Assembly (NCBI GenBank): GCA_964016885.1 | Contig: OZ024743.1 | Coordinates: 103,912,001 to 103,976,000, forward strand | Length of the DNA: 64,000 nucleotides | From: Eledone cirrhosa | Lineage: Eukaryota | Direction: 5' to 3' | Shown here: positions 17,565 through 62,880 of the stretch, piece by piece | Position numbering within the stretch: the first letter of the stretch is position 1 | How the letters are laid out: the number at the start of each line of letters is the position of its first letter | The notes under the pieces: generated by a model | The model's input: the letters and a program-made list of their open reading frames with translations, nothing else | Told to the model about the DNA's origin: nothing | The model's database searches: none | Translations under genes and position numbers: made by a program

Positions 17565-17666
17565 TTAAATTTCATTTATTTGTTCAATTTCCCTCATGTA
17601 TTCTATTTTTTCCACAGACAAGTCAAGGTTCATCTGTGTTACTGAGCGGATTGCCTCAGCAAGGGC
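17565..17666 (-). CDS. cora: protein 4.1/coracle homolog, last coding exon (end of 4.1 CTD)
   Basis: tttcag|ALAEAIRSVTQMNLDLSVEKIEYMREIEQINEI*, matching the Coracle/4.1 CTD end ALAEAIQEATAMNPDMTVEKIEI. Confidence 0.92.
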   Translation of the reverse strand, partial: ALAEAIRSVTQMNLDLSVEKIEYMREIEQINEI

Positions 17667-18960: not shown

Positions 18961-19050
18961 AGCATCATAATCAATATCATCATTATCACTGGTTATGGTT
19001 ACTTTCTTTTCCACTCGCGTCTCAATCATTCCATCCTTCTCAGTTCGATA
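18961..19050 (-). CDS. cora: protein 4.1/coracle homolog exon (CTD)
   Basis: cttcag|YRTEKDGMIETRVEKKVTITSDNDDIDYDA|gtgagt, 90 bp, phase 0-0. Matches YKTERDGIVETRVEQKITIQSDGDPIDHD. Confidence 0.93.
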
Positions 19051-19770: not shown

Positions 19771-21155
19771 CTAGCATTAAAGCCCAGCGTTGCTCGGGGG
19801 TCAGTAAGTTACCAAAGTTAGGTTGCACCACCCATTTTATGGCAGCACTTTTTTGTCTGTCAGGCACTGGGTGAATGAATTGCAGACCTGGACTGCCGAA
19901 GCAGGAGCTGCGCCAGCAGTGACAATTGTAGCTTTGCCTATGGATATTATCTCTGTGCAAAGAAGTGTTGAAATTTATTGTTTCACAGTACTTGCGCAAC
20001 ACGCGCGTAGATGATGCCAGCCGAACAACAGAGCTGCGATGGTTCTGCATGGTTGTTTAATGTGTGTTTTCTAAATTTAAGATAGTAGGGAGGGGTGTGA
20101 TATGGGGGAGAGTTAGCTGCGGATTCTAGCAGGTTTAGTGACCTCATAGAGGATATTATTGTGTATGGTAAATAAACTGATACTTCTTTCTTCCACGTTC
20201 GTTGAAAGATGTTTTTAAAAAGATTTATCGGTATTTTTTTTTGTTGTTGAATAAATTTATCTGTTGCTTTTGAATAATTGTTGTTTCGTATGAAATGTAA
20301 TAAGTTTTCTTTGTCATTGAAGTAAATAAATGTTTGACTGTTCCACACTAAAAAACAAACGTTCTCTCTCTACTCTCTCTCCTTCATTTCTTTCTCTCTT
20401 CTTTCTTCGGCATTCATAAAGGAAGTTTGTAAGTTTAAGCGTATATAAGAGAAAGTTGCAGCATGTATGTAGTTTTATCGAATTTTAAGAGGAGTAGATA
20501 GAGGAAGTCAGATTGTATTAGAGGGGTAAAGCGTCATGTACTTAGTTTTATCGATTATTTCCATAATTGTGGGTGAGTTTGAAAGAAATAGTCGTTGACC
20601 TAAGTTAGACCATTTACAACATTCTAACAGACTTTGAGTCGAATCGGTTTGAAATTGTGCAAATGTATAAACATGCAACATGCACACAACAACAAACTAC
20701 CTTTTATAGATAATGATGATGATGATAAACCCAGTATTTTTTTTTTCGATTTTTAAGGGGAGTAGAGAGAGGAATCAGATTGTATTAGAGCGGTAAAACG
20801 TCATGTATTTAACGTTTATCTCACTCCTTTATTTTTTCTCTCTCTAAAGGAAATTAGTAAGGAGTGGGTTTATAAGCGTATATAAGAGAAGGTTGCAGCA
20901 TGTATTTTTTTTTTTGATTTTTAAGGGGGAGTAGAGAGAGAAAATCAGATTGTATTAGAGGGGTAAAGCATCATGAATTTAGTTTTATCGATTATTTCCG
21001 TAATTGTGGGTGATTTTGAAATAAATAAATAGGCGTTCACCTAAGTTAGACTATTTACAACATTCTTACAGATTTTGAGTCGAATCGGTTTGAAATTGTG
21101 CAAATATATAAACATGGAACATGCACACACACACACAACAATCTGCCTTTTATAG

Positions 21156-21193: not shown

Positions 21194-21452
21194 GATAAAT
21201 CTACCAAGAGTTTACGGTAGTGTCCAATCCGTATGAAGAACTCAATGTAATCCGGATATCATGGAAAGAAGAGATGCAATGAAATTTCACTTTCGGTGAA
21301 AGATAAACGGAATACAGAGTCAAGATAAAATATTAAAAAAATAATGAATAAAACAATGAAGCAGTTCCTTATATTAAACAAAAAAAGTTCATTATTTAAC
21401 GATCGTTTCTAGGATATATATGTGTTAGAATTGGCATGCATATTCAACATTA

Positions 21453-21598
21453 TTATTTCTGAAGACGGCATATATATGTGTTGGTATGTATATTTAATCT
21501 TGATAGTTTGTATAATTTTGTATAATTTTGTACATAGATCTGTTGAATATGCATGCCAATTCTAACACATATATATCCTAGAAACGATCGTTAAATAA
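21453..21598 (+). ncRNA. type I hammerhead ribozyme-like motif with a long stem II (Penelope pLTR-type)
   Basis: ttattt-CTGAAGA (21459)-long stem (tatatatgtgtt...aacacatatata)-GAAA (21581)-cgatcg-TT-aaataa. The base of stem II pairs imperfectly. Confidence 0.55.
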
Positions 21599-21664
21599 TG
21601 AACTTTTTTTGTTTAATATAAGGAACTGTTTCATTGTTTTATTCATTATTTTTTTAATATTTTA

Positions 21665-21992
<328 letters not shown>

Positions 21993-25200: not shown

Positions 25201-25335
25201 ATGAATCTAGCAGATCCGCCCCTCCACCTGGTCTCTTGGATACAGCAAACATCAACCTCCTTACGTTCAAGCATTTCTACAACCTCGTTAGAGCGACCTT
25301 TTAAGGTGCCTACATTCATGGTACCAACTCTGTAT
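22217..25335 (-). mobile_element. near full-ORF RTE-clade LINE (APE endonuclease, RT, PHD-like finger), frameshifted
   Basis: APE motifs [42 protein letters not shown] motifs NYRGIKL, QFGF, FVDLEKAFDRV, HQGSVLSP, LYADD. C-terminus RRLRWFGHVMRM..GRPRKTW, stop at 22354. At least four frameshifts plus small in-frame deletions. Confidence 0.95.
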
Positions 25336-25777
25336 AAATATATGTATATATATACATATATATATACACATATATATATACACATATATATATATACACA
25401 TATATATATATACACATATATATATACATATACACATATATATATACACATATATATATATACACATATATATATATACACATATATATATATACACATA
25501 TATACACATATATATACACATATATATATATACACATATATATACACATATATATATATACACATATATATACACATATATATATATACACATATATATA
25601 TACATATATATACACACATATATACACATATATATATACACATATATATACACATATATATATACACATATATATATATACATATATATATATACACATA
25701 TATATACACATATATATATACATATATATATATACACATATATATACATATATATATATATACACATATATATATAC

Positions 25778-26170: not shown

Positions 26171-26206
26171 TTATATATATATACATATACATATATATAC
26201 ATATAC

Positions 26207-26237
<31 letters not shown>

Positions 26238-26270
26238 CATATATATATATACACATATATATATATATAC

Positions 26271-26319
<49 letters not shown>

Positions 26320-26800
26320 CATATATATATATACACATATATATATATATACATATATATATATACATATATATATATACACATATATATATACACATAT
26401 ATATATACAAATATATACACATATATATATACACACATATATATATACACATATATATACACATATATATATACACATATATATATACATATATATATAC
26501 ACATATATATATACACATATATACATACACATATATATATATACACATATATATATATACACATATATATATATACACATATATATATATACACATATAT
26601 ATATATACACATATATATATATACACATATATATATATACACATATATATATACACATATATATATATATATACAGATATATACACATATATATATACAC
26701 ATATATATATATATATACACACATATATATATATACATATATATATACACATATATATATACATATATATATATACATATATACATATATATATATACAC

Positions 26801-26833
<33 letters not shown>

Positions 26834-26836
26834 CAC

Positions 26837-26881
<45 letters not shown>

Positions 26882-26934
26882 TATATATACATATATATAT
26901 ATACACATATATATATACATATATATATATACAC

Positions 26935-27003
<69 letters not shown>

Positions 27004-27110
27004 CATATATATATACATATATATATACATATATATATATACATATATATATACATACATATATATATACATATATATATATATACATATATATATACAT
27101 ATATATATAC

Positions 27111-27173
<63 letters not shown>

Positions 27174-27312
27174 CATATATATATACATATATACATATAT
27201 ATATACATATATATATATACATATATATATACATACATATATATATAGATATATATATATATACATATATATATACATATATATATACATATATATATAC
27301 ATATATATATAC

Positions 27313-27359
<47 letters not shown>

Positions 27360-27442
27360 CATATATATATACATATATATATATACATATATATACATAC
27401 ATATATATACATATATACATATACATATATATATATACACAC

Positions 27443-27499
<57 letters not shown>

Positions 27500-27538
27500 C
27501 ACACATATATATATATATATATATATACATATACACAC

Positions 27539-27571
<33 letters not shown>

Positions 27572-27658
27572 CATATATATATATATACATACATACATAT
27601 ACATATATAAATATATATATACATACATATATATATATACATATACATATACATATAT

Positions 27659-27732
<74 letters not shown>

Positions 27733-27924
27733 ATACATATATATATATGTACATATATATATATACATATATATATATGTACATATATATATGTACATAT
27801 ATATATATGTACATATATATATACATATATATATATACATATATATATACATATATATATATATATACATACATTTATATATATACATATATATATATAC
27901 ATATATATATATACATATACATAC

Positions 27925-27955
<31 letters not shown>

Positions 27956-28492
27956 CATATACATATATATACATATATATATATACATATATACATGTAT
28001 ATATATATATATATGTATGTGTATATATATATATATACATATGCATACATATATATATACATATATATACATATGCATACATATATATATACATATATAT
28101 ATATATACATACACATATATACATACATATATATATATATACATATATATATACACATATATACATACATACATATATATATACACATATATATATACAC
28201 ATACATACATATATATATATATACACATATACACATATATACATATATATATATACACATATATACATACATATATATATATACACATATATACATACAT
28301 ACACATATATATATATATATATATATACATACATATATATACATATATATATATACATATATACATATATATACATATATATATATATACATATATATAC
28401 ATACACATATATATACATACACATATATATATATACATACACATATATATACATACACATATATATATATACATACATATACATACACACAC

Positions 28493-28532
<40 letters not shown>

Positions 28533-28559
28533 CACACACACACATATATATATATATAT

Positions 28560-28595
<36 letters not shown>

Positions 28596-28745
28596 AAGGC
28601 GGGTAAAATTCCCGAGATACATGGACGAGTTCTCTCCAGCGTTCTCTATCCCTCATTATCGCTGCCATGTCCTGCATCTCCAATACATATATATATATCT
28701 ATCTATATATATATCTATATATATATCTATATATATATCTATATA

Positions 28746-28818
<73 letters not shown>

Positions 28819-28902
28819 ATATGTATATATATATACATACATACATACTTATACATATATATATACACACATATACAGATATATATACATGCATATACAT
28901 TA

Positions 28903-28935
<33 letters not shown>

Positions 28936-29084
28936 GTATATGTATGTATATATAAGTTGAAAAAAATGAAAACGAAATTTCATTTCTCACTCTTAGTATG
29001 GCACTTACTTAAATGTAAGTATGTATGTATACGTACATACATATATGTATACAGACGTACAGTAGCATGCATATATATATATAT

Positions 29085-29124
<40 letters not shown>

Positions 29125-29798
29125 GCATATATATATATACATATATACATATATATATACATATATATATATACATATATACACACATATGCATATATAT
29201 ATATATACATATATACATATATATATATACATATACACATATATATACATATATATACATATATACATATATATATATACATATACACATATATATACAT
29301 ATATATATATACATATATATACACATATATATACACATATATATACACATATATATATACATATATACACACATATATATATACATATACATATACATAT
29401 ATATATACATATATACATATACATACATATATATATACATATATATATACACATATACATACATATATATATACATATATATATACATATATACATATAC
29501 ATACATATATATATATATACATATACATACATATATATATATATACATATACATACATATATATATATATACATATATACATATATATATATATACATAT
29601 ATACATATATATATACATACATATATATATACATATATACATATACATACTTATATATATATATATATATACATACATATATATATATATATATATACAT
29701 ACATATATATATATACATACATATATATATATATATATATACATACATATATATATATACATACATATATATATATACATACATATATATATACATAC

Positions 29799-29867
<69 letters not shown>

Positions 29868-29900
29868 CATATATACATATATACATATATATATATATAC

Positions 29901-29931
<31 letters not shown>

Positions 29932-29998
29932 CATATATATATACATATACATATATATATACATATATATATATACATATACATATATATACATATAC

Positions 29999-30029
<31 letters not shown>

Positions 30030-30040
30030 CATATATATAC

Positions 30041-30099
<59 letters not shown>

Positions 30100-30200
30100 C
30101 ATATATATATACATATATATATATACATATATATATATATACACATATATACATATATATATATACATATACATACATATATATATATACATATACATAC

Positions 30201-30279
<79 letters not shown>

Positions 30280-30638
30280 CATATATATATACATATATAT
30301 ATAGATATATACATATATATATACATATATACATATACATATATACATATACATATACATATATATATATATACATATATATATACATATATATATACAT
30401 ATATATATATATATACATATATATATACATATATATATACATATATATATATACATACATATACATACATATATATATACATACATATATATATATATAT
30501 ATATACATACATATATATATACATACATATATATATACATACATACATATATATATACATATATACATACATACATATATATATACATATATACATACAT
30601 ACATATATATATACATATATACATATATATATACATAT

Positions 30639-30671
<33 letters not shown>

Positions 30672-30751
30672 CATACATATATATATACATACATATATAT
30701 ATATATATACATACATATATACATATATATACATACATATATATATATATA

Positions 30752-30783
<32 letters not shown>

Positions 30784-30898
30784 CATACATATATATATAT
30801 ATACATACATATATACATACATATATACATACATACACATATATATATACATATATATATATACATACATATATATACATATATACATATATATATAC

Positions 30899-30945
<47 letters not shown>

Positions 30946-30982
30946 CATATATACATATATATATATATACATATATATATAC

Positions 30983-31013
<31 letters not shown>

Positions 31014-31091
31014 CATATATATATACATATATATATACATATATACATATATATATACATATATATATATACATATATATATATACATATA

Positions 31092-31137
<46 letters not shown>

Positions 31138-31237
31138 CATATACATACATATATATATATACATACATACATATACATACATATATATATATACATACAT
31201 ATATATATATACATACATATATATATATACATACATA

Positions 31238-31325
<88 letters not shown>

Positions 31326-31336
31326 CATATATATAC

Positions 31337-31415
<79 letters not shown>

Positions 31416-31449
31416 CATATATATATACATATATATATATATATACATA

Positions 31450-31561
31450 TGTCCTATGCGAGCAAGACAATCACTCTTGCCTCAAGTGGGACTACCCCCG
31501 TCCAAACCCATGCAAGCGTGGAACACGGACGTTAAACGTTGATGATGATGATGATGATGAT
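31450..31561 (+). mobile_element. RTE LINE 3' terminal fragment
   Basis: Inverted, essentially identical copy of 25817-25927. Confidence 0.85.
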
Positions 31562-31668
31562 ATATATATATACATATATATATATACATATATATACATA
31601 TACATATATATATATATACATATATGTATGTATATGTATATATATATATGTATATATGTATATATATG

Positions 31669-31702
<34 letters not shown>

Positions 31703-31875
31703 TATACATACATATATATATATATATACATATACATACATATATATACATATACATACATATATATACATATATACATACATATATATATATACATATA
31801 TATATACATATATATATATACATATATATATATATACATATATATATATACATATATACATATATATATATACAT

Positions 31876-31908
<33 letters not shown>

Positions 31909-32085
31909 CATACATATATATATACATACATATATATATACATACATATATACATATATATATATTTATATACATATACATATATATATATATACATATA
32001 CATATATATATACATATACATACACATACATATACATACATATACATATATACATATATACATATATATATGCATATATATATAT

Positions 32086-39993: not shown

Positions 39994-40203
39994 AGTAGTT
40001 GTTTCAATGGTCTGTGTTTTTGAACTATGAGCTTGCGAACTGACCAAAACCCCGTCTTCTGACACAGGCTGGCCTTCTACACCCTCTCTTTGGTAAGACA
40101 CTTTCCTCGTCTCTGTCTTTACTATGGGCACATTCTTGGTAGGTATTGGCTTTTCACTTAAAACTGGGCTATATTTGATACATTCCGTTGCAATTGTGGG
40201 GGG
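39994..40203 (-). CDS. cora: protein 4.1/coracle homolog exon (start of CTD)
   Basis: ctacag|PPTIATECIKYSPVLSEKPIPTKNVPIVKTETRKVSYQREGVEGQPVSEDGVLVSSQAHSSKTQTIETTT|gtaagt, 210 bp, phase 0-0. VPIVKTET and LVSSQ..SSKT are 4.1 CTD signatures. Confidence 0.93.
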
Positions 40204-42379: not shown

Positions 42380-42818
42380 ACTTTATGTGTGTCTGAGACC
42401 CTGTCAACAACCACAACTTGATCCACAAAGACAATAGGTGTAAATGGTAGAAAAAGAAGCAAATGGAAAAAGTGATGATTTGGAGAAAAAAATATATAAA
42501 GTGTTTGATGTGTAAAATGAAACGGACAGAAGAGCATCCATGAAAACAGGTCAAAGAGAGGAAAGAGTGAAAGTTTAGGAAAATGTAAGAAAAAAAATCC
42601 AAAAGGATGAAAAAGATGAAAAAAAATTTTTTTTTCAAATTATCACTGCAAACACCACCACCAAAACTAAGTAAAAAAAAAAAATACCACCACCAACATT
42701 ACAAAATTCTAAAACCATTATCACCATTACCAATTCACCACCACCACCATTACTACTACTACTACTGCTACTACTACTACCTTTACCATCACCAGCAGCC
42801 AATACCAGCTGTACTTAC

Positions 42819-42986
42819 AGTTGGGCTTGTTTGAACACCCCAATGTGGATGGGAATCAAGCTGGTCTTCAGGTTTGCTTCGACTGCTGTACTTAGGTGGA
42901 ACTGGAGGAGGTATTTTGCGAACACCAGATTGTACCTCTTGGACGCCATTCACAAGGCTGATCTTCCCGAAACCAGCTTTAGTTGT
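42819..42986 (-). CDS. cora: protein 4.1/coracle homolog exon (variable region, PxxP motif)
   Basis: atgcag|TTKAGFGKISLVNGVQEVQSGVRKIPPPVPPKYSSRSKPEDQLDSHPHWGVQTSPT|gtaagt, 168 bp, phase 0-0, open reading frame. Confidence 0.8.
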
Positions 42987-45039
42987 CTGCATTAAGACAA
43001 ACATGGAATTTCTGGATAGATTGACAGGTTTATTTTTTCAATTGCATCATGTGCCAAAGTGTTAATAAAAGTTAGTGTGCCATGTGCAAATCACCAAGAG
43101 AACAAAATGGTAAAGAAAAAACAATAGGCCAGAGACATTTTTTTAACTTTCTGCATGCAACCAATTGTACAAGTTTTGGCACAATACACCACTGCTGCCA
43201 TCTAATGACATTAACATAGCCACCCCCAACCACAGACACATGGTTCCATGCTTTGAGTTAAATGGCTTGGCTTACTTTAAAAACATGAAAAACCCAGTTA
43301 ATTAAATATTAGTGTGGAGGGGAGAGAAAACAAATGAGTTAAGCATTAAAAATGGTGTTGGGTGTATTTAACATATAAAATAATGTAAGTGCACGTGTCA
43401 AGAAAAAAGCTGACATTATTAAAGAAAAAAATTGGAGTTACATTTAAATAAGCAATTAAAAATAAAACCAGGTGAGTATACAATGTTGTAAGATAAGTGC
43501 CAGAATACATTCTAACACAGTTTTAAAATCCTTTGAAAGGTTTCAAGTTAGATACTCCATTTATATCATTTACTAATACACCACTGCCCAAACTATCATA
43601 ACTAACCTAAAACTGCCCTTGTTCTATGACACATAACTGCCCATTTTAATATCTCCAAACTTATAGATATTAAAACCATCCAACATTATGGAAGAATGTT
43701 TTATTAAGTGATTCACCAAACATCAGTTTACTAATGAAACATTAGCAACTTTAATAAAACTGTCCAACTTCTTCATTGCTTTCAAAATTCATTGAAACAT
43801 GTTCATGGAAATATAGTAAGAAAACAGTTAGAATACTACATTTCTTTAGTGTCTCCTTCTTCTGCAACTACTAAACTAGCAACAGAAGGACCACACACAC
43901 AACTTAACCAAATAAAACCTATACTTTGTTTTAACCAATATTTTCTCTAATATCATTCAGGTGTCATATTTGTTTACATGTCATATTTGTTTACATATCA
44001 ATATTGTCATTCTGTACAAGCTAGTTGATACTAAGTATGTTCTAATTTTAATACTAGCCTAAGGTATAAATGAAAAAAAATATATATATGGCTTCAGCCG
44101 GATGGCTGGAGCAGGTAAAAGAGTATATATATATTTATTTATTTGTTATCTTCTGTATATGGTTCACGTTATCCATGTCTTGTTCACAGCCCAATCTGAA
44201 ACAATTTATTCATTTTCTGTATCAATATCTGTTGTTTCAGATAAAGAAATCTACTCATGTGGCAGCTGTGCAAATACATCAATAAAGTGTGTGTGTGTGT
44301 GTGTGTGTGCGTGTGCGTGTGCGTGTGCGTGTGTGTGTGTACACACACACACAATCTTCATTTTCGATTTTTTTTTTTTGTCTTTACTTGGACCTTTTTT
44401 TTTTCTTTTTCTATATTGTGATCTTGTCCCTATTTTGTACTCCTGAAGTAGGGTTTAAACCGACACAGCGAACATTCTTTCCTCTTTCCAATATAAAGCA
44501 TGAAACTAACAAGACTTTTCCCACCTCTGTTTGATGTCTCCTTGAAAATACACATACATGTATTTATATAAACACTGTATGGTGCAAAATTTCCCTGAGG
44601 AAGGGAAGATGCCCAGTGTCACAAGCCATATTATGAAAGACAAGAGCAGGTATAAAAACTGAAATGTGTAGGAAATAAAATGGTGTAACTTCATCTGCTG
44701 TTTATATTATTATTCTATATCTGTCTCTCTCTCTATATATATAAAGAATTTGGCAAGGAAAGACAATCAGTGGATATAGCAGGTTAGAAAATGATGTAAA
44801 TAAAAAACAAAAAAATTGTAAGTAATCTCCTTGTTTACTACTTATGTTTTTTGCATTAGTAAAAAAACAAAGTTAAATATTAAAGAAAATAAAAAATAAT
44901 TATAAGTGAATGTGAGTTGAAAGGGAAGTCATGGCCAAGTTCTTAGGGCCCTGGTTTAAATATCCAGATAGAACTGCTTCTACACACACACATACATGGT
45001 AATGGTGATGATGATATATATATATGTGTGCATGGGTGT

Positions 45040-45700
45040 TTTTAAAAATCTATCCCTTAATATTAGTCATAGGATTTCTATCATAACCAGTAAGGAGATA
45101 TTTGATAATGCACCACTATATTATAATGCTCTTCAATATAGTGGCTTCAAAGACAAGATTAAGTACATATCCAACACCCCCCCAAAAAAAGAACTACAAA
45201 TAGGAATAAAAATATAATCTGGTTCACCCTTACTCCCTAAACATAAAGTCTAATGTAGGTAAGAAATTCTGAAACCAGTGTTTCCCCATTCAAAAAAGGT
45301 ATAGCTACATATGCAGTAGGTTCTACATCAAAATACAATATTTTTACAGCCCCATTGTGAGGTTGATAACTACTAGAAACAAACCCAAAGAAGATCCAGG
45401 ATGCTCTTGCAGGATAAGAGAAAACTGCTCACAGCATCAGAATTATAACATTGTCCATAGTATACAGGGTGGAAGTTACACCTGTTACTATCAACCATGC
45501 AGAGAGAATGTCCTTTAGATAAACTGAGATGAAGACAACAACGACCATTGTAAAATGAGTCTGGTAATTAAAAGACAAAGTAGCCCCCCATGCAATAAAC
45601 TGGAGAAATTTGGAAAGTCCAGATCATATATTAATGGATCAAAGAGATGTTCTCTTTGAAAAAATTCAGGATTCTACAAGGTTTGAAATTGTCAAACAAA
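45040..45700 (+). mobile_element. Penelope-like retroelement remnant (RT thumb to GIY-YIG region)
   Basis: Decayed frames encode KNLSLNISHRIS..KEIFDNAPLYYNALQYSGF, KNIIWF-PYSLNIKSNVGKKFL, CSCRIRENC and IVYRVEVT, typical of PLE proteins (IIWFNPPYS..VKTNIGKKFL). Confidence 0.72.
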
Positions 45701-46287
45701 TATCTAAACTCAAAGAAGGAGGTCAGTAAGGGCTGCTTACATTTTAAGAGTATTTACTTTCATCATAGAAAAAAACCACAGCCCAGATATCCAGTCATCA
45801 CAAACAGAAGTATTACATCCACCATTATGTAACATTCTGAATTGCTTGACACCTTTTTCTTCTACACTTTACACTAACAATTGACCCAAATTACTCACAA
45901 ACAATGGAGCACACATGTTATATCACAGCATATTGCATCACTATCTCAAGAACACACAGGCGTCACCTCCCTTTTACTCTGGTTTAATATATTCTTCTAG
46001 TTATGTCCTCTTTTCACAGAGGATCTCACCCAAAAGTCTCATTCAGCCCTCTTGCCACTACATTTAATGAAAGGTAGAGACCATGGGTCTACTTTCTGCA
46101 TTGTGTCCATTGTGTGCCATAAAATTTAAGGTTCTGCAACAAGCATTACGTGTAAGAATCATAATTCATTCTTAATCATTATGTAAAGCTTTTTCCTTCA
46201 AACAAACCTTAATGCGACATACACTCATACACACAATATATTAGTGTTATTTTTATACGTTATAAAAATTTCAAATGTTAACCTGCT

Positions 46288-46342
<55 letters not shown>

Positions 46343-47179
46343 AAAATTTCATGCAAAATTAAAAGAATCAGTTAGGATTAATAAATTAGCTTCAAAAAGA
46401 AACAAAAATTTTAAAGAGTTAATTACAAAAACATATTTTTTTAAAATATTTGTGCCATGAATTAATTCAGTTAATAAAATATCAAATTTGTTTCATATAA
46501 AAATATAACAAAAATAATCTTACGTAAATAAAGCTGTTGACTTAGGAAGCATTGGGAAATTTTGAACTGAGTGTGTCTCATTGCAAATGCCCATAATAAT
46601 AGTTGATCAGTATAACATTTAAGAAAATTGGTAAAACGGCCATGTGGACAGGTGCCTCTATTCAATTTTTCCCATCTCCAGGGATACTTTACGCTACTAT
46701 TTATAATGATCAACTACAGTTATGGTTATTTGTGTTGGGATACACACATTTCAAATGTTTCAAATTAAATTCACTCTAGTAGTCAAACAAATCAAATACA
46801 AAAATTAGGCATGGTGTTCTTAAAGGCTGCTGAAAACAGCAAATGCAAAATGGACCTAGCAATACGAATTTCACATGCAAGTATAAAGCTACAGCACATC
46901 ATTTGAAGAAAATATTATTGGATATGCACAAAGAGCATATCCAATAATAATAGTATGATAAATAACTCCATTTTGGTTCTTTCAATAGTTTCTACTTACT
47001 TCAGTGTCTGCTAACTACTACCCTGTCACAACTAAATATGTCGACACTGCCCTACTTCTTTTATCGGATTTACCGTCTAATGCTCTTACATCACTCATAC
47101 ATCACTACCTATTCTTTTTAATATCTATTTTGCCTAGATTCAAACTAAACCTCCTCTAGTTACCTTGTCCTCTTACTTG

Positions 47180-47217
<38 letters not shown>

Positions 47218-47965
47218 GAAGAGAACCAAGGTTTTAAAATTAAATCCATCTTTAATATCTACAATGGTTTCTATACAAGTGATAAGCTTACATGTATAAG
47301 CAAACAACGAATCAATCAGTTATAGCTAATTACACGGTGATCCTTAACCATTAAGTAACATAACTATAGCTACATTCTAACACAGGACATAAATTAAACA
47401 AACTACTTTACACCATAATACACCCCCCCCCCCCCCCTGTTAGTATTACACTAATTTTCTGATTTGAATTTACCACTAGATATCATAATTCAGCATGTTA
47501 TCAAGTCATTTTATGTTTTCTACTCCTGATCATCTGATATCAGAGAGTAACCTGACTAATATTATTTATATTTTTACCTATTGTACATCTATTAATGCAA
47601 AAACTACTTAATTACTGTTGTGGTTTTTGGACTGTAGCTTCTCTCTCTCTGTATGTTGTTTACGTATTACCAATGTAGGATTTTCTAAGGCTTACACGAA
47701 ATTATATATACTGCCTTATACCTAAGCCTAAAAACATACTTCTTCACCATAATTACTAACTTGTACATCTACCCACATCAGTTGCTTTCTTCATTGCTAA
47801 CCTGTATTCAACATTTGATAATGTGCATGCTCTTAATATATGTTTTTGTTAAATTCAATCCATCTTAATAATCCTGATGATACACAAATGGTTTCTATAT
47901 TGTGTGAATAATTGTTAATTAGTTATAATTGACTAATTCGTTGTTTGCTTATACATGTAAGCTTT

Positions 47966-48135
47966 TAGGGGAGTGGAAAATTGATTAATTCAACCCCCAG
48001 TGCATTACTGGTGCTTTATTTTAACCCCTTAAGAGGGTGAAAGGCAAAGTTAGCCCTGGCAGGATTTGAACTCAGACTGTAAAGGACCGTAAGCATCATA
48101 TCTATCACTCTACTGATTATGCCAATTCTCCGCCC
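47966..48135 (-). mobile_element. Meta-domain SINE
   Basis: Same family as 12520-12700 (aggatttgaactcag; aaaggcaaagttagccc). Confidence 0.65.
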
Positions 48136-48323
48136 TACGGCTTTATATAATAATAATAATCAGTTAACACTCCCCTCACAATTTGGTGGAAAAGGGGAAA
48201 CTGTGAACAAGCTTTCTGAATAAAGCCAAGTAACAAAGTAAATTGAAGTAAAATAAAAATGAATAAAAATATAATCACAGGGTGCAATAGTTGTCTATAT
48301 GTGTGAAGTAGAAAGACTCCTAC

Positions 48324-51179
48324 CTTTTCTGGTTTAGTAACTGGTATGAAGGACATTTTGTTGTCAATCCATGATTCTTGTCTTGGAGAGCCTGTTTCAC
48401 CAACAACAGTTGGAATAACGTAGCCGATAACACCAGGAACACCATAGCTGTCGCCTCCAGGTACAGTGATCGTACTAAGCTGAGCATTAGGACTGTATAT
48501 TTTACCCTGAGGACCATAGAATCTGCCGTCAGGACCATAGCATTTACTGTCAGGGCTGTAGAGATTACCGTCAGGACCATACACTCTGCCGTCTGGACTG
48601 TAAACTTGTCCTTCCGGACCATAACCTTTACCATCGGGACCATACAGTCCACCGTCAGGGCCAAACAACTTGCCCTCTGGACCATATATTGAACCATCAG
48701 GACCATGACCTTTACCATCAGGTGAATAAAATCTTTGATCAGGACTGTACAAGTTGTCATTGGGACCGTACACTCTGCCATCTGGGCTGTACAGTCGATC
48801 ATCAGGACCATATATTTTGCCATCAGGACCAAATAATCGGCCATCAGGACTAAAGACCTGACTGTCAGGGCTGTACGGTTTACCACTGGGCCCATATACT
48901 CTACCATCAGGGCTATAAACACTGTTGTTGGGACCATATCCTTTGCCATCACGACCGTGCAATTTACTGTCAGGGCCATACACTAAGCCATCTGGACCAT
49001 GTACCTTGCCGTCAGGACCATAATTTCTGCCACTTGGACAACATATGGTGCCATCAGGGCCATAACCTCTGCTGTCAGGTGTATAAAACCTTTCGTCTGG
49101 ACTGTATAGTTGTCCGTTGGGTCCTATTACTCTTCCATCAGGAGTTTGCTGTCGACCACCAGGACCAAATACTTTGCCGTCTGGACCATAAAATCTACCG
49201 TCAGGGCCAAAATATCTACTGTCAGGACTGTACAAGTTACCGTCAGGACCAAACACTCTGCCATCTGGGCCATATACTTGTCGCCTGGGGCCATATCCTT
49301 TACCATCAGGGCCATATGGTTTGCCATCAGGGCCATATATTCTACCATCAGGGCCATACATTCTACCACCAGGACCATAACCATTGCCATCAGGATCATA
49401 AAATCTTTGATCGGGAGTGTACAATTCTCCATTTGGACCATACAATCTGCCATCTGGACTGTATGCTTCACCATTCGGGCCATATCCCTTACCAGCAGGG
49501 TCTGGAAGGCCATAGCCTCTACCTTCTGGAGACCTAGATACTTTCCCTTCTGGAGAACCACAAACTGTGCCATCAGGGTTATACAGTCGATCATCAGGAC
49601 CATATATTTTGCCATCAGGACCAAATAATCGGCCATCAGGACTAAAGACCTGACTGTCAGGGCTGTACGGTTTACCATTGGGCCCATATACTCTACCATC
49701 AGGGCCATAAACACTTTTGTTGGGACCATAGCCTTTGCCATCACGACCATGCAATTTACCGTCAGGGCCATACACTAAGCCATCTGGACCATTCACGATG
49801 CCGTCAGGACCATAATTTCTGCCATTTGGACAACATATGGTGCCATCAGGGCCATAACCTCTGCTGTCAGGTGTATAAAACCTTTTGTCTGGACTGTATA
49901 GTTTTCCATTGGGCCCTATTACTCTTCCATCAGGAGTTTGCAATCGGCCACCAGGACCAAATACTTTGCCGTCTGGACCATAAAATCTACCGTCAGGGCC
50001 AAAATATCTACTGTCAGGACTGTACAAGTTACCATCAGGACCAAACACTCTGCCATCTGGACCATACACTTGTCGCTTGGGGCCATATCCTTTACCATCA
50101 GGGCCATATGGTTTGCCATCAGGGCCATATATTCTACCATCAGGAGCATATATTCTACCACCGGCACCATAACCTTTGCCATCAGGAGCATAAAATCTTT
50201 GATCGGGAGTGTACAATTCTCCATTTGGACCATACACTTTGCCATCTGGACTGTATGCTTCACCATTCGGGCCATATCCCTTGCCAGTAGGAGGATCTGG
50301 AAGGCCAAAACCACTTCCTTCTGGGAACCCAGAAGCATTTGCTTCTGGAGGCCCACAAACTGTGCCATCAGGGTTATACAGTTGATTATGAGGACCAAAT
50401 ATCTTGCCATCAGGACCAAATAATCGGCCATCAGGACTAAAGACCTGACTGTCAGGGCTGTACGGTTTACCACTGGGCCCATATACTCTACCATCAGGGC
50501 CATAAACACTGTTGTTGGGACCATATCCTTTGCCATTACGACCATGCAATTTACCGTCAGGGCCATAAATCTTGCCATCTGGACTGTTTACAATGCCGTC
50601 AGAACCATAATTTCTGCCATCTGGGCACCATACTGTCCCATCTGGGCCATAACCTCTGCTGTCAGGTGTATAAAACCTTTCGTCTGGACTGTATAGTTGT
50701 CCGTTGGGTCCTATTACTTTTCTGTCAGGAGTTTGTAGTCGACCACCAGGACCAAATACTCTGCCGTCTGGACCATAAAATCTACCGTCAGGGCCAAAAT
50801 ATCTACTGTCAGGACTGTACAAGTTACCGTCAGGACCAAACACTCTGCCATCTGGGCCATATACTTGTCGCCTGGGGCCATATCCTTTGCCATCAGGGCC
50901 ATATGGTTTGCCATCAGGGCCATATATTCTACCATCAGGAGCAAATATTTTACCACTGGGACCATAACCTTTGCCATTAGGAGCATAAAATCTTTGATCT
51001 GGGCTGTACAATTGTTTATTTGGACCATACAATCTGTCATCTGGGCTGTATGCTTCACCATTTGGCCCATAACCTTTGTCGTGGGGTGGTTCTGGAAGGC
51101 CATAACCATTGGCTTCTGGACATCTGTAGCCCCTGGACAGAGGCACTGGCCCAGGATAAACGTCTCCATTGACAGTTGA
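48324..51179 (-). CDS. cora: giant repeat exon (952 aa of YGPDG heptads) of the protein 4.1/coracle homolog
   Basis: ttttctag|STVNGDVYPGPVPLSRG...IPVTKPEK|gtagga. 2856 bp without a stop, phase 0-0, on the same strand and phase as the flanking 4.1 exons. Confidence 0.85.
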
Positions 51180-52375
51180 CTAGAAAAGATAAAAAATATA
51201 ATCATTATAGATTTTATTTTACAAATGAATTATGAAATATTTTCATAAACTTAATTTATTAAAAAAAAGTGCTAAAGGAAAATTAGTTAAGCAAAACAAT
51301 AACTGTAATGTATAATATGGTCAGTCAGACTGTACAACATGTATCAATCAGACCACAGCTAAGCAATATATGGTCAGGGAACAAGAAACAAGTTGAACAA
51401 AGCATACTCTCAACTAAAAATTGAACTCATGAAAGAAGTCTGGTTTCAGGTATTATGAAAGTGATATTTAAAAAAAAGGAAATGTAAAAGAAAAATAAGC
51501 AAAATATTTGATAAACTTAAGTCTACATGGTAACCAATGTTACATACACAGAAATACATATATAAATGAATGTGTAAACATATGGACAGGCTGCATTTTA
51601 CTGTGCCACCAACACAAGCAAAGTTGTCTGCCAGGCTAAAGTGTTTCCACTTCACTGCGTCAGGTTTGGTTCAAAATTACTTTTGTCTTGGTAGGATCAC
51701 CTGTAATTGGTTCATGTCATTCGATAATAACAGCTGAGGGTAGAGGGTCACTGATTAGAGATATGAAGATGGGGGCATGCTTTCCACACTAGGCTGGGAG
51801 ACTTTCAGTGTGCATATGGCTTGTTTGGAGTGCATGAATACTATGAAGTGGAAGAGGGTAGCTGACAGTAGACTGACAGGTGGAATAATGGTGACTGGGC
51901 GTTACAACAAAGAAGCTATAGTTTGAAGTAGAAGTCACTTCTATAAAATTGAATGAAGAAGTGGCACATAAACATTAAATAAACATGACAGAAAAGGAAT
52001 TTAAGCAAAGATTTTATAATCATACATCTGTCTTTAGATATATAATAATTGGACTGTCAGGAACACCACAACAAATTTATCCAACATCTTGTAATCAAAA
52101 GAAAGTACTTCTGACTATACTATCAAATAGCAATTTTTTAAAGATTTAAGCCTTACAAAAACTATGTAACGTATGCATAATAGGGAGAAGAAAAATTCAC
52201 AAAAGTTTCTTAATCAAAATCACTGTATAAACACCAGGTCAGCAGTGTTCAAGAAATGCAGACACTTTAAAAGAGCGCCTGTCCTAGAACTGAGCAACAC
52301 CACCTTCCCCAGAATGAAATCAAACAAATGCATAAACATTTGTAATTGCTTCATGTTGGTTTGGTTTGATTTTTT

Positions 52376-52417
<42 letters not shown>

Positions 52418-54820
52418 CTCGATCATCTTTTTTCTTTTCCCCCTTTCTCATCTAATTTTTTATCTGCCTATTTACTTAATTTCATACAACTCATAGGCAA
52501 TAGAAATATAAGTGGGTACAGCTGAAAAGTTAAAACACTCAGAAAAACAAATCTTGTAGAGACAAATATTTTCAGATCAGTTTCTTTAATGCTATAGATA
52601 TTTATACATATTTTCTTATATTTAATTCACCTTTAAAACAAAAGTAAATTATTTCCAAATATGATTGTGTATCAGCAACTAAGATGTGGTAGACAAAATC
52701 AAAGCACACAGAAAACAAAAAGAACTAAAAAAGAAAAAAAATATATTTCATACTTCCTCTCTCACTCTATCTATCTATCTCACACACACACACACACACA
52801 GTTGTTATAAAATTATTACACCGATAAACAAATAAAGCACATGAAAATACAATAATGATAAAAAAAAAAAAAAAAAAAAAATCAACAAAAGCTCAAAATA
52901 CCATGCCTTATATATACAGAGGGGTAGGTTATCGGATAGAGTATTTAAACAGATTGATGAGGGAGAGGAGGAAACTTCCTCTGGTCGGGGATGACCATTG
53001 TTTTGCACTTTAAAAGTTTCTTCTCTCCACACCACCAATGTTTCCCATCATCGGATTGATGAATGGCTTAGAAAAGAGAGAGAGTGAAAGTAAGGAGATA
53101 GAAGTGGTAGGGAGCAATGTAAAGTAGTTAAATACCTCTTATAAACATTGCAGAAAGGGTTGGCAAAATTTTACATTAGAACAAAAGAAATGCCAAGAGG
53201 GATTTAAACATAATTAGCTAAATGACATCAAACAACATTAAATGAAACAACATTAAATGAAACAACAAATAAACAGGAACAGACAAGAAAAGAAATACTT
53301 TGAAATAGAAGATAAAATATTCTGCAACAGCCAGGTGGCGGGATCAAAGAAGGAAAAACAAACAATAGAAAAGAAGTATGCCTTTTAAAATTTGTTGGCA
53401 TATATAAGGGATGGAAAGTGAAAGTGTACATGACTGGGGTGTTTGCAGGAATTGATTCTAGTAAAAACGAGAAGCAAACTGACCGTTATGAACAACAAGC
53501 AGGGTGATTATTATTAATAAGCAGGAGGATGACAAGGGGAAAGCAACATTTATTATTAGATATACATCTAACAACATTAAATGAATAATTTCTGAAGAGA
53601 TTTATATGCCATTTGGCAAATGAGAGACAGAGATGAAATGAGTAAGGGACAATTATACATGCATGGGTTCTATTTCTGGATGTGGTTATGAAATATATGA
53701 AGCAGGTGGAGACAGTAGGTTGTTCTATAGTTAGAAATACATATTTTCATGCACAGAGCTGTCAACGATCTAATATTCTAATTTACAGAATTACTGATCC
53801 ATACCATAAGGAGGATCTAAGATGTATCTAAGTAAAATGTGTCCATCTATTTAAAAAGTGTTGGCATTATGTTATTTTAAATTTTAATTACAATCAAATT
53901 AAGAGTACTTTTATAATAACTCATCGCCATATAATGTCTATTTTCATGCTTGCATAGTATAAACGAGTTGTCACCTTCTGAAGATAGACAGGTCGAGAGG
54001 CTATATCCTGCTCATAAGTTCTGTTTGGGACCTGGTTTCTATGGCTGGATGTCCTTTCTAACATCAACCACTTTACTGCATATACTGTGATCATTTTACC
54101 TGGCACCCTTACAGAATGGGATTAGGTGCTTATCATGGCACCAGCATTACCACTTTACAGGCTGGTCGGGATAGTTATTGTTTTGGCACTAACACTACCA
54201 TCATATAGTGTGGACTGGGTGCTTATATATTATAATATTTTGCTAAATTAGTTAAATAAGGCTAGAGTTGAAATGTGCCTGAGAAAGAGAGGAAGAGATA
54301 GTATGTATGTATACATATTTTACTAGTTTCAATCATTAGACACTATGTGAGGATATTGCCTTTAACTGTATAATGAATATCAACACCTGTACTTAAGTAC
54401 TTATTTTATCAACCTATGGAAGGATGAAACTAATGCACAAGTATACTTATTTAATAATATCTCTCTCCCCCTCAGAGTTATAATATACCTATTCAAAAAT
54501 GGATATACATATATATGTGTGTGTGTATTGGTACTTTAAGAAAGCAACACCAAAATTCAGCACACAGCATATCAAGGAAACGAAATAACAGAAGTAAGCT
54601 TTATTTCAGCTTTATGTTTTTCTGTTCAAATTCATAGCTGTTGCATAACTGTTATCACCGAAATATATATAACAGTGACTATGAATAAACAAAATTAATT
54701 TTAACCTGTTGACATAGGAGTATATTTATAAACAAGGACTGAGTAAACAGACCCACCTGCACACTTTGTCAAGTGCTCTATCCTGGTGAAGTGTCAGTGA
54801 TTAACCAATACATACTCAAA

Positions 54821-54872
<52 letters not shown>

Positions 54873-55089
54873 TATAACCATAGGCACTATCTTTTATTAG
54901 AAATAAATACCAAAATAGTGTATGTAATGGGGTATATGTCTAAGAGACTGGAATATTTCTAGTTGAACAGCTCTCAGAAAGAAAAAAAAGATAACAGACT
55001 TATTCTTATTAGTAGACAAAGAGTAGATCGCAGTTAAGTAATATAAGTTGGTGTAGGTAAACACCAATGGCAGGCAGAAGATGGCAAAC

Positions 55090-55236
55090 CTTCTCTACCG
55101 ATTCTTGCTCTTCATCTAGAATAGGGGGTAACTTTGTCTTCATATGCCCTGTCTGAGCATCAAATGATGTCACCTTATCCTCACCATCTTCGTCTGAGGA
55201 ATCGGAGGAGGAAGAAGAACTGGATGAATCTTTCCG
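55090..55236 (-). CDS. cora: protein 4.1/coracle homolog exon (Ser/acidic variable region)
   Basis: ttacag|RKDSSSSSSSSDSSDEDGEDKVTSFDAQTGHMKTKLPPILDEEQESVEK|gtttgc, 147 bp, phase 0-0. Possible internal alternative donor after GEDK. Confidence 0.72.
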
Positions 55237-56389
55237 CTGTAAATATGATGAGGTGATAAGAAGTATGAAGTGGCGTATAAATTGATGGCACTAGTGTAGG
55301 AGTACATTTGTTCTCTAAGTCTATGAAGGAACTGCTTTTAAATTATAGATGAACATGCATACACAGACACGTGTGGGGTGTATTGGTGGGGGGGGGGGGG
55401 ATGTTTGTTTGCCTGCCTGTTTTGCTGTCAATATTTTCTTTGTTTTCAGACTAATCGCATTTCAAAAGTGTTGATGAAATGAATGATGAATTTCATCCCA
55501 AGTATAAGAAATACAGGTAAGCTGCCAAAAACTTTGTATCAAGTTTGAATTGTGCAACAAAAAGAAAATAGAAATATTTCATTAAAAAAAACAATGAAAC
55601 TTTATGATATACATGCTTGTATATATTTGTTTGCATGTATGTACACGTATGTTTGCATATATGTGTGTACATTTGTGTTTGCATTTGGGTATATATACAT
55701 ATGTTAGCATGCATGTATGTGCACATATGGGTTTTCATATATGTGTGTATGGGTTTTCATAGATGTGTGTGTACATGTGTTTGCATACATGTATGTGTAC
55801 ATGTCTGCATGTGCTTGCATATATGAATGCATGCATGTGTTTGCATATATGAATGCATTCATATGTTTGCATACATTTGTCTACACGAGTTTATATATAT
55901 ATATATATATATATAAATGAAAGGTATAGAAATTGTTTTAGCGAGAAGCTAACAGTATTCTATAATATATATATATATGTATATATTTATGTATATATAT
56001 GTATATATTTATGTATATATATGTATATGTATATGTATATATATATGTATATGTATATGTGTGTATGGGGATTTATAAATAAAAAACTTAATACTTAAAA
56101 CAAAATTAAACAAAAAACATTAATCACTTAAAGGAAATTATGCAAACAAGAAAAAATATCAATTTAAATTTTTACAATAAAGTAACAAAAAATAAATATA
56201 TAAATAAATAAACAATAACCAAACTTTAAAAAAAAAATGCAACAAAATCAAAATTCTAAGTTGATAAAAAAAAAACGTCTAGTATACAACTTATTAATGT
56301 AACAAAATGTTTTCTTTCGTGAATGTGTGTACACAGCAGGAAAATGTGATTTGATAAAATGAAACTGTTAAATAGTGTAGTTGATAGTT

Positions 56390-62805: not shown

Positions 62806-62880
62806 CTTTTCGGATTTCCTTCTAAAAGGGTTTCGCATAGGACACAGAAGTCCAGACGATGAGGATCTATGGACGCTTTT
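62806..62880 (-). CDS. cora: probable protein 4.1/coracle homolog exon; upstream FERM exons lie beyond the window
   Basis: cttccag|KSVHRSSSSGLLCPMRNPFRRKSEK|gtgaca, 75 bp, phase 0-0, joining in frame to the 55236 exon. No homology recognised. Confidence 0.55.

What the first reader, a model, noticed from the sequence alone, without database searches (positions are those of the whole stretch)
48324..51179. Giant 952-aa YGPDG-heptad exon inside a protein 4.1/coracle gene
Seen: a 2856-bp stop-free exon with canonical splice sites and phase 0 at both ends. It lies between ordinary exons that lead into an unmistakable 4.1 C-terminal domain, and it encodes more than 100 heptads of consensus [YF]-[GS]-P-[DN]-G-[RK]-x. 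Known: 4.1/Coracle proteins link membranes to the cytoskeleton at septate and axo-glial junctions and have alternatively spliced variable regions; I know of no such repeat domain in them. Inference: this is a skippable cassette giving a lineage-specific giant 4.1 isoform, analogous to giant ankyrin exons. The PDG turns and aromatic strands could form a beta-hairpin solenoid spacer, or an elastic or phase-separating Tyr/Arg/Gly domain.
Basis: partly seen in the sequence, partly recalled or inferred. Interest (0 to 1): 0.85.

Follow-up and report, generated by a model that had tools for sequence, protein, structure and literature searches.

The report
Giant turn-repeat exon in protein 4.1
A 2.9-kb exon encoding 116 seven-residue Tyr-Gly-Pro-Asp-Gly-type repeats is spliced between exons of this animal's protein 4.1 gene (a membrane-to-cytoskeleton linker), where it likely forms an optional, flexible ribbon-like spacer; long insect versions of the protein carry similar-sized turn-rich inserts, so this is probably a recurring design, not a one-off.

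Summary
Confirmed: the exon is 2856 nt, stop-free, AG/GT-bounded and phase 0. It encodes 952 aa with 116 in-register heptads (only 36 match the strict consensus). It lies between the FERM-FA and C-terminal-domain exons of a complete protein 4.1/coracle gene. One sequencing run that behaves as RNA shows it spliced on both sides. Skipping of the exon itself was not seen. Repeat copies show purifying selection (dN/dS 0.24-0.63). No annotated protein with this exon was found. The claim that 4.1 proteins lack such repeats fails in part. A mirid bug and parasitoid wasps carry xDG-turn repeats in the same inter-domain region, and three flies have isoform-specific 770-940-aa DPxxG-turn inserts. Likely mechanism: a marginally stable beta-meander spacer, like the PDG-turn sheet of CPAP but with shorter strands. 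AlphaFold was inconclusive (pLDDT 41 and 38), so a disordered Tyr/Pro/Gly chain is a close rival. The scan had no earlier look-alike. New variant of a known kind.

The parts
48324..51179 (-). Giant phase-0 coding exon, 952 aa: 36-aa lead, heptad blocks of 34, 34 and 48 repeats joined by two ~26-aa Pro/Gly linkers, 51-aa non-repeat tail
   Evidence: spliced on both sides in run X4
50277..51071 (-). Higher-order unit U1 (residues 37-301)
49485..50276 (-). Higher-order unit U2 (residues 302-565)
48792..49484 (-). Heptad core of unit U3 (residues 566-796)
48498..48791 (-). Older partial fourth copy (residues 797-894), 72-74% identical to the unit starts, dN/dS 0.24-0.26
62806..62880 (-). 25-codon phase-0 exon; one of the two upstream exons joined to the giant exon (the other ends at G000:C4:103982235, beyond the window)
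55090..55236 (-). 49-codon phase-0 candidate exon with a Ser-run motif also present in the Apolygus 4.1 protein; bypassed by both upstream joints seen
42819..42986 (-). 56-codon phase-0 exon; joined to the giant exon upstream and to exon 19050 downstream
   Evidence: (joint 48324->42986 with GT-AG ends; loose end at 42819)
39994..40203 (-). First exon of the 4.1 C-terminal domain (Pfam 4_1_CTD positions 1-48); skipped in both downstream joints to 19050 that were seen
18961..19050 (-). Second CTD exon (Pfam positions 53-78); receives a direct splice from the giant exon
17565..17666 (-). Last coding exon with stop codon (end of the CTD)

Best explanation
This is a coding exon spliced into the variable region between the FERM-FA and C-terminal domains of a protein 4.1/coracle gene; it is probably an optional cassette, and its 116 heptads likely fold as a narrow, marginally stable beta-meander ribbon that would act as a long, compliant spacer between the membrane-binding FERM domain and the partner-binding C-terminal module. 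SHOWN: the exon, its splicing on both sides, its growth by nested tandem duplication (21-nt heptad, then ~795-nt unit) and protein-level constraint. INFERRED: each heptad is a 3-residue Pro-Asp-Gly turn plus a 4-residue strand (R/K, V/L/I/F, Y/F, G/S). An odd period of 3 plus an even number is what a continuous meander of 3:5 hairpins needs, and it would place aromatic and beta-branched residues in cross-strand ladders on both faces (textbook hairpin geometry, recalled). At 0.48 nm per strand the three blocks would span roughly 16, 16 and 23 nm, hinged at the linkers, and could unfold to about 350 nm under load (rough estimate). The aromatic ladders might also bind proline-rich partners, as in CPAP (untested).
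For: Splicing: in run X4 only, of 4 runs laid, joint 48324->42986 has GT-AG ends (depth 503.6, one contig), and a contig starts exactly at 48324. X4 depth is 142-1680 over the exon bins against about 0.4-13 in non-repeat intron bins; X1-X3 are flat. Loose ends at 48324 and 42819 match the first 30 nt of exon 19050 exactly. The loose end at the acceptor is explained in 30 of 30 columns by exactly one of 69,751 pairs of donor-context sites, the exons ending at 62806 and 70235 (next best pair 28 of 30). Selection: dN/dS 0.42-0.63 between the recent units (p from 0.0005 to 0.15) and 0.24-0.26 for the older copy (p about 1e-6). Among heptad pairs with the same residue, 59% use a different codon at Pro3 and at Gly5. 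Fold leads: CPAP's TCP domain is a single-layer sheet of about 20 antiparallel strands whose turns are often PDG (PMC3776556, passages). Both AlphaFold models put short strands every 7 residues, and Foldseek on the first ranks CPAP TCP10 4th (E 7.8e-7) among hairpin-rich folds. Parallels: 8 of 120 arthropod 4.1 proteins score above all locally shuffled controls against the repeat (7-94 bits against a maximum of 3.9). Three dipteran long isoforms have 768-941-aa isoform-specific inserts holding 13 of 13, 13 of 16 and 16 of 19 of their DPxxG motifs.
Against: Both AlphaFold jobs failed to give a confident fold (pLDDT 41.0 and 37.5; pTM 0.18 and 0.20). The Foldseek TM-scores to CPAP are only 0.13-0.19, so the match is local and partly sequence-driven. 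The repeat is 22% Gly and 15% Pro, 4-residue strands are very short, and position 2 is usually Gly rather than a turn-capping Ser/Thr/Asp. The best sequence match in the PDB is the disordered Pol II CTD heptad, and CPAP was not hit by sequence. Amino-acid changes between units are not significantly uneven across heptad positions (p 0.33). RNA support is one run of unrecorded kind from one sample, with short contig overhangs. No read spans FERM to the exon, and no skip of the exon was seen. Tissue, location and partners are unknown.
Confidence: 0.5

Rival explanations
1. The exon is real, but the repeat is an intrinsically disordered Tyr/Pro/Gly/Arg chain that works like the RNA polymerase II CTD or an elastomeric protein: a multivalent, phosphorylatable tether that may phase-separate and cluster 4.1 complexes at the membrane.
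For: Best PDB sequence match is the Pol II CTD, in the same Y1-x-P3 register (E 3e-22; E 2.6e-17). Composition is 22% Gly, 15% Pro, 10% Tyr, 7% Arg with net charge -5 over 865 aa. 31 of 109 regex heptads have Ser/Thr before Pro. AlphaFold confidence is low twice.
Against: Positions 7 and 1 are mostly beta-favouring (hydrophobic 88 of 116, aromatic 101 of 116), and D/N-G follows Pro, a turn signature that the Pol II heptad lacks. The strict 7-residue register is kept across 116 repeats with no indel inside a block. Most heptads have Gly, not Ser, at position 2.
Confidence: 0.3
2. A 21-bp minisatellite was exonised and is tolerated; only length and an open frame matter, not the sequence.
For: The genome holds unrelated 21-bp minisatellites whose translations resemble the repeat at 33-43% identity. 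dN/dS between recent units is only moderately below 1, and 2 of 6 comparisons are not significant. The 703-aa Drosophila isoform without a long insert rescues cora mutants (PMC7329144, passage).
Against: dN/dS is 0.24-0.26 in the older copy. Conserved residues use diverse synonymous codons, whereas the minisatellites are homogeneous or full of stops in the matching frame. Turn-periodic inserts recur in arthropod 4.1 proteins.
Confidence: 0.1
3. The heptads stack in parallel as a rigid beta-solenoid or cross-beta-like rod or polymer rather than a flat meander.
For: Strict periodicity with aromatic and Asp/Arg positions able to stack. Periodic Gly-rich silk proteins form extensible cross-beta structures (PMC5485732, passages).
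Against: A proline in 111 of 116 heptads disfavours parallel beta-arcades (recalled principle). Neither model shows a solenoid, though both are low confidence.
Confidence: 0.07
4. The exon is mainly used in short transcripts from an internal promoter that lack the FERM domain, giving a separate repeat-plus-CTD protein.
For: No contig links the exon as far as FA or FERM; the upstream joints reach only the exons ending at 62806 and 70235.
Against: The exon has no start of its own in the joints seen. Candidate phase-compatible exons continue from FA to 70235.
Confidence: 0.03

Closest known systems
Long Coracle/protein 4.1 isoforms of arthropods (Drosophila 1698-aa Coracle with its 'central divergent region', PMC2132682 passages; Apolygus KAF6197634.1; Leptopilina, Phymastichus, Fopius and Cotesia 4.1; mosquito and hoverfly long isoforms)
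   Same: Same gene family, and an insert between FA and CTD. The size is similar (768-941 aa isoform-specific in three flies). Content is turn-periodic: xDG heptads in Apolygus, mixed 6/7/12 spacing in wasps, DPxxG in flies and a beetle.
   Different: This repeat is far more regular, and Tyr/Pro-rich (Y+F 14% and P 15%, against 1-7% and 1-7%). The flanking variable-region exons show no detectable homology to arthropod 4.1, so common descent of the inserts is not shown.
CPAP/SAS-4 TCP (G-box) domain, single-layer beta-sheet (PDB 4bxr; PMC3776556, passages)
   Same: PDG-type turns linking consecutive antiparallel strands, with exposed aromatic residues. Foldseek rank 4 for the low-confidence model.
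   Different: No Pfam Tcp10_C hit and no sequence hit. TM-score below 0.2. About 116 putative strands of 4 residues against about 20 longer strands. It works like it at best; it is not a member.
Giant ankyrin long exons (PMC5135030, passages)
   Same: One very long coding exon in a membrane-skeleton adaptor. Some carry lineage-specific repeat arrays proposed as spacers.
   Different: Those average 8.1 kb and are Ser/Glu-rich. This exon is 2.9 kb and Gly/Pro/Asp/Tyr-rich, and no neuronal specificity is shown.
RNA polymerase II CTD heptads (PDB RPB1 chains)
   Same: Period 7 with Tyr1 and Pro3 in register.
   Different: Position 2 is mostly Gly, positions 4-7 are D-G-R/K-hydrophobic, and there is no second Ser-Pro. 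The resemblance is best read as convergence.

Membership tests
Protein 4.1/coracle gene | N-terminal FERM domain | tested here: met
   tblastn of three arthropod 4.1 proteins finds seven collinear FERM segments at 54-76% identity on the same strand upstream
Protein 4.1/coracle gene | FERM-adjacent (FA) domain | tested here: met
   PF08736 over the cut-off at G000:C4:103993642-103993740, minus strand
Protein 4.1/coracle gene | 4.1 C-terminal domain | tested here: met
   PF05902 in exons 40203-39994 (E 1.5e-5) and 19050-18961 (E 1.7e-4); last exon by tblastn
Protein 4.1/coracle gene | Giant exon joined in frame to exons of this gene | tested here: met
   Joints to 42986 and 19050 downstream and to 62806 and 70235 upstream, all phase 0, in one RNA-like run
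Protein 4.1/coracle gene | One transcript carrying FERM, the giant exon and the CTD | not testable with these tools
   Only short contigs were available
Cassette (skippable) exon | Symmetric phase and canonical sites | tested here: met
Cassette (skippable) exon | Transcripts that skip it | tested here: inconclusive
   No skip joint among the 15 of 68 joints and 24 of 1386 loose ends shown; neighbouring exons are alternatively used
CPAP TCP/G-box single-layer beta-sheet | Pfam Tcp10_C or sequence homology | tested here: not met
CPAP TCP/G-box single-layer beta-sheet | Consecutive antiparallel strands joined by PDG turns | tested here: inconclusive
   57 PDG motifs at 7-residue spacing; low-confidence models and low TM-scores
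CPAP TCP/G-box single-layer beta-sheet | Binds proline-rich motifs through aromatic residues | not tested
   No partner known
Giant-ankyrin-type long exon | Ser/Glu-biased composition | tested here: not met
   Ser 5.7% and Glu 1.5% in the repeat region against about 25% combined
Giant-ankyrin-type long exon | Neuron-specific inclusion and axonal role | not testable with these tools
   Tissue of run X4 not on record
Pol II CTD-type heptad | Ser2-Pro3 and Ser5-Pro6 phospho-sites | tested here: not met
   Position 2 is Ser/Thr in 31 of 109; no Pro among the 8 commonest residues at position 6

The most novel reading that the evidence does not exclude
Long protein 4.1/Coracle isoforms across protostomes carry a previously unrecognised mechanical module: an optional beta-turn ribbon, built separately from PDG, KDG or DPxxG repeats in different lineages. 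It acts as a force-unfolding spring or ruler between membrane and cytoskeleton, and this 116-heptad exon is its purest and most tractable form, a new 7-residue-period beta-meander fold.
Probability: 0.25. Interest if true: 0.8.

Novelty: new variant of a known kind. Interest (0 to 1): 0.55.

Why it matters
I found no function assigned to the large central region of Coracle/4.1 long isoforms in the passages read; the short fly isoform rescues mutants (PMC7329144). This exon, together with the arthropod inserts found here, suggests that region is repeatedly filled with turn-periodic sequence. That gives a testable structural hypothesis for an old blank in a much-studied junction protein. The near-perfect heptad is easy to express and mutate. 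If it folds, it would be an unusually narrow single-layer beta-ribbon, of interest for protein design and cell mechanics. It also appears to be missing from protein databases, which points to large repeat exons being overlooked in annotation.

Tried and rejected
No RNA holder was listed by record; the RNA nature of X4 is inferred from its own pattern. The bin holding exon 55236-55090 has no cover in X4; this is not evidence that the exon is never used. Most other listed joints lie at interspersed repeats with 20-30-letter sides and mostly non-canonical ends, and were rejected as artefacts. A genome-wide pattern search with part of the acceptor-side loose end found nothing, because it is a column mix of two contigs. 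The Pfam hits on the exon (Proteasome_A_N, DUF4440, GBD_IRG7_N) are short-motif artefacts of the repeat. Protein searches found no close relative: 7 hits among 7991 scored at 1667-4760 aa, all insect or unnamed repeat proteins; none of 27 candidates for the exon's non-repeat tail at 523-1666 aa; 760 hits among 50%-identity representatives, of which 150 were listed, best 301 bits, and only P0021 has a 4.1 CTD. The whole repeat was not searched in the 524-1666-aa range of the 90% library. The ESM Atlas gave no usable hit for the repeat or for the wasp insert. A metagenome scan found none of 58 pattern matches to be relatives. The second AlphaFold job used a self-alignment in which MAFFT stacked overlapping segments on themselves, so it added little signal. 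Other matches in the own genome are unrelated 21-bp minisatellites; the exon is single-locus among the candidates scored. Literature: nine searches. Judged from titles and abstract openings, none describes this repeat or a cephalopod 4.1 isoform; for, 30 of 113 papers were listed. Passages of PMC12125057 and PMC10887211 added nothing specific. No supplements were opened. Earlier scan notes: nothing by sequence or place, and 8 unrelated giant-exon notes by words.

Full report
Observation. The minus-strand interval 51179-48324 is a 2856-nt open frame of 952 codons between a polypyrimidine-AG acceptor and a GT donor, phase 0 at both ends. The other five frames contain 10-116 stops, and base shuffles give no ORF above 302 aa in 1000 trials. 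There are 116 in-register heptad slots in blocks of 34, 34 and 48, with Pro at position 3 in 111, an aromatic at position 1 in 101, D/N at position 4 in 100 and Gly at position 5 in 84. The exon grew by nested duplication: three units of about 264 aa that are 88-91% identical in DNA, and an older partial copy at the 3' end.

Host gene. The window is G000:C4:103912001-103976000 of a 3.0-Gb animal genome. No call named the organism. Seven FERM segments map collinearly upstream on the same strand, followed by an FA domain over the Pfam cut-off. Then comes a run of phase-0 exons (extended window coordinates 73579, 70333, 62880, 55236, 51179, 42986, 40203, 19050; the first is a candidate only) ending in the 4.1 C-terminal domain. 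It is a complete 4.1/coracle gene.

Expression and splicing. Four runs from one study hold the exon, none on record as RNA. Laid on 42790-55260, three are flat. Run X4 has depth 142-1680 over the exon bins against about 0.4-13 in non-repeat intron bins, and it alone shows the joint 48324->42986 with GT-AG ends (one contig, depth 503.6). I therefore read X4 as RNA; this is an inference. Loose ends at 48324 and at 42819 are exactly the first 30 nt of exon 19050. The giant exon is thus spliced either to 42986 or directly to 19050, and both routes seen bypass the first CTD exon (40203-39994). The acceptor-side loose end is a consensus of two contigs. Of 69,751 pairs among 374 donor-context sites upstream, only the exons ending at 62806 and 70235 explain all 30 columns; both are phase 0. 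Skipping of the giant exon was not seen either, but only 15 of 68 joints and 24 of 1386 loose ends were shown, and contigs show presence, not absence. Loss of the first CTD exon need not disable the CTD. In human 4.1R the last 62 residues (exons 20-21) suffice for NuMA binding (PMC2148212, passages), and a 57-residue fragment of the 4.1G CTD holds the binding module (PMC10523638, passages). The last two exons here encode 63 residues. Their equivalence to exons 20-21 is my inference from position and length.

Selection. dN/dS between the three recent units is 0.42, 0.60 and 0.50 over whole units (p 0.0005, 0.022, 0.009) and 0.43, 0.63 and 0.49 over the heptad core (p 0.003, 0.15, 0.06). The comparisons are not independent. 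The older partial copy gives 0.24-0.26 (p about 1e-6), and conserved Pro and Gly use different codons in 59% of same-residue heptad pairs. The protein, not the DNA unit, is conserved, under moderate constraint. Changes are not significantly uneven across heptad positions (p 0.33).

Relatives. No annotated protein with this exon was found (limits under Tried and rejected). Similar xxPDGxx heptads occur in unrelated proteins of moths, mayflies, molluscs and unnamed metagenomic records, so the motif arises repeatedly. One hit, P0021, is a 4.1 protein of the mirid bug Apolygus lucorum with its own run of xxGKDGx heptads. I then took the best 120 of 474 proteins matching its CTD, nearly all named ones arthropod 4.1 proteins and partly redundant. 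Against the repeat, 8 of 120 score above every locally shuffled control (controls at most 3.9 bits; 767 of 1200 scored): Apolygus 94 bits (found through the repeat, so not independent), four parasitoid wasps 30-59, two Halictus isoforms 12, and one unnamed protein 7. Separately, 38 of 120 have more [DN]PxxG motifs than any of 50 shuffles, 34 of them by a wide margin (12-20 against at most 5), mostly flies, plus a beetle and a butterfly. In three fly species the motifs lie mainly in an insert of 768-941 aa that is present in the long isoform and absent from the short one. 36 of 120 are 1500 aa or longer. An isoform with this exon would be roughly 1500-1650 aa plus any N-terminal extension (my sum of exon lengths), the size of the 1698-aa Drosophila Coracle (PMC2132682, passages). 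coracle splicing is regulated by Muscleblind (PMC3315501, passages), and the 703-aa isoform rescues mutants (PMC7329144, passage). The variable-region exons here have no detectable arthropod homologues, so convergence and remote homology cannot be told apart.

Mechanism. AlphaFold2 gave pLDDT 41.0 for one unit alone and 37.5 for 14 heptads with a self-alignment. Both models place 1-3-residue strands every 7 residues. This is a weak lead. CPAP's domain is a solvent-exposed single-layer sheet of about 20 antiparallel strands with PDG turns that binds a proline-rich motif through aromatic residues (PMC3776556, passages). From recalled hairpin geometry, a 3-residue P-D-G loop plus a 4-residue strand allows an uninterrupted meander with Tyr/Val cross-strand ladders. 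I favour a marginally stable ribbon acting as a compliant spacer of about 55 nm folded and 350 nm extended (0.5). The main rival is a disordered Tyr/Pro/Gly chain resembling the Pol II CTD, which is the best PDB sequence match (0.3). Tolerated exonised satellite (0.1), solenoid or cross-beta rod (0.07; compare lacewing silk, PMC5485732, passages) and FERM-less transcript (0.03) are less likely.

Comparison and novelty. It is a member of the 4.1/coracle family and works like the optional central inserts of long Coracle isoforms. It is not a giant-ankyrin-type exon by composition or size (PMC5135030, passages), not a TCP domain by sequence, and not a Pol II CTD. Nine paper searches (titles and abstract openings seen, passages for the papers cited) showed no description of this repeat or of turn-periodicity in Coracle inserts. 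Subscription papers and supplements were not seen. Earlier scan notes hold no look-alike.

Verdict. That parallel is itself the most interesting result. New variant of a known kind; interest 0.55.

Noticed in passing
window 39994-40203 (-): The first CTD exon is bypassed by both joints to exon 19050 seen in run X4 (from 48324 and from 42819), so these transcripts would carry only the last 63 CTD residues.
   Followed up: partly
window 55090-55236 (-): The exon begins with an Arg/Lys-Asp-Ser-run motif nearly identical to residues 526-542 of the Apolygus 4.1 protein. There the heptad run lies before the motif; here the giant exon lies after it.
   Followed up: partly
P0196, P0202, P0285, P0294 (parasitoid wasp 4.1 proteins): About 900-aa central regions made of degenerate ~25-residue units with xDG/xNG turns at 6-, 7- and 12-residue spacing; no Pfam family covers the region in P0196.
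   Followed up: partly
P0223-P0253 (bee 4.1 proteins): A different, charged 8-residue Lys/Glu repeat fills the central region in many Apis and Bombus isoforms.
   Followed up: no
P0002, P0003, P0006, P0008 (moth proteins of 2468-2968 aa): Unrelated to 4.1, but carry long xxPDGxx or xxGPGGx heptad arrays at one shared position; three have a DM9 annotation.
   Followed up: no
window 484-1974 (-): Tigger/pogo-type transposase remnant: CENP-B_N, HTH_Tnp_Tc5 and DDE_1 in two open frames separated by a stop.
   Followed up: partly
window 22354-25500 and about 10658-12000 (-): Broken LINE-type retroelement copies inside and beyond the gene; RVT_1 hit at 23118-23699.
   Followed up: partly
window 26172-32085: About 5.9-kb (TA)n/(TACA)-type microsatellite in the intron between the two CTD exons, giving spurious ORFs up to 1810 aa.
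   Followed up: no
window 21325-21665: Inverted repeat with 125-nt arms, 99% complementary, 91 nt apart, next to a ~440-nt direct duplication at 20436-21129.
   Followed up: no
G000:C2:229.20-229.42 Mb and G000:C2:19.917-19.921 Mb (L007, L009): Large minisatellite-like arrays whose translations resemble the heptad: the first spans over 200 kb with many TGA stops in the matching frame; the second has a 7-codon period and an 851-aa open frame on one strand.
   Followed up: partly
P0192 (Strigamia 4.1, 1797 aa): Appears to hold two tandem FERM-to-CTD copies in one record, possibly a fused annotation of two genes.
   Followed up: no
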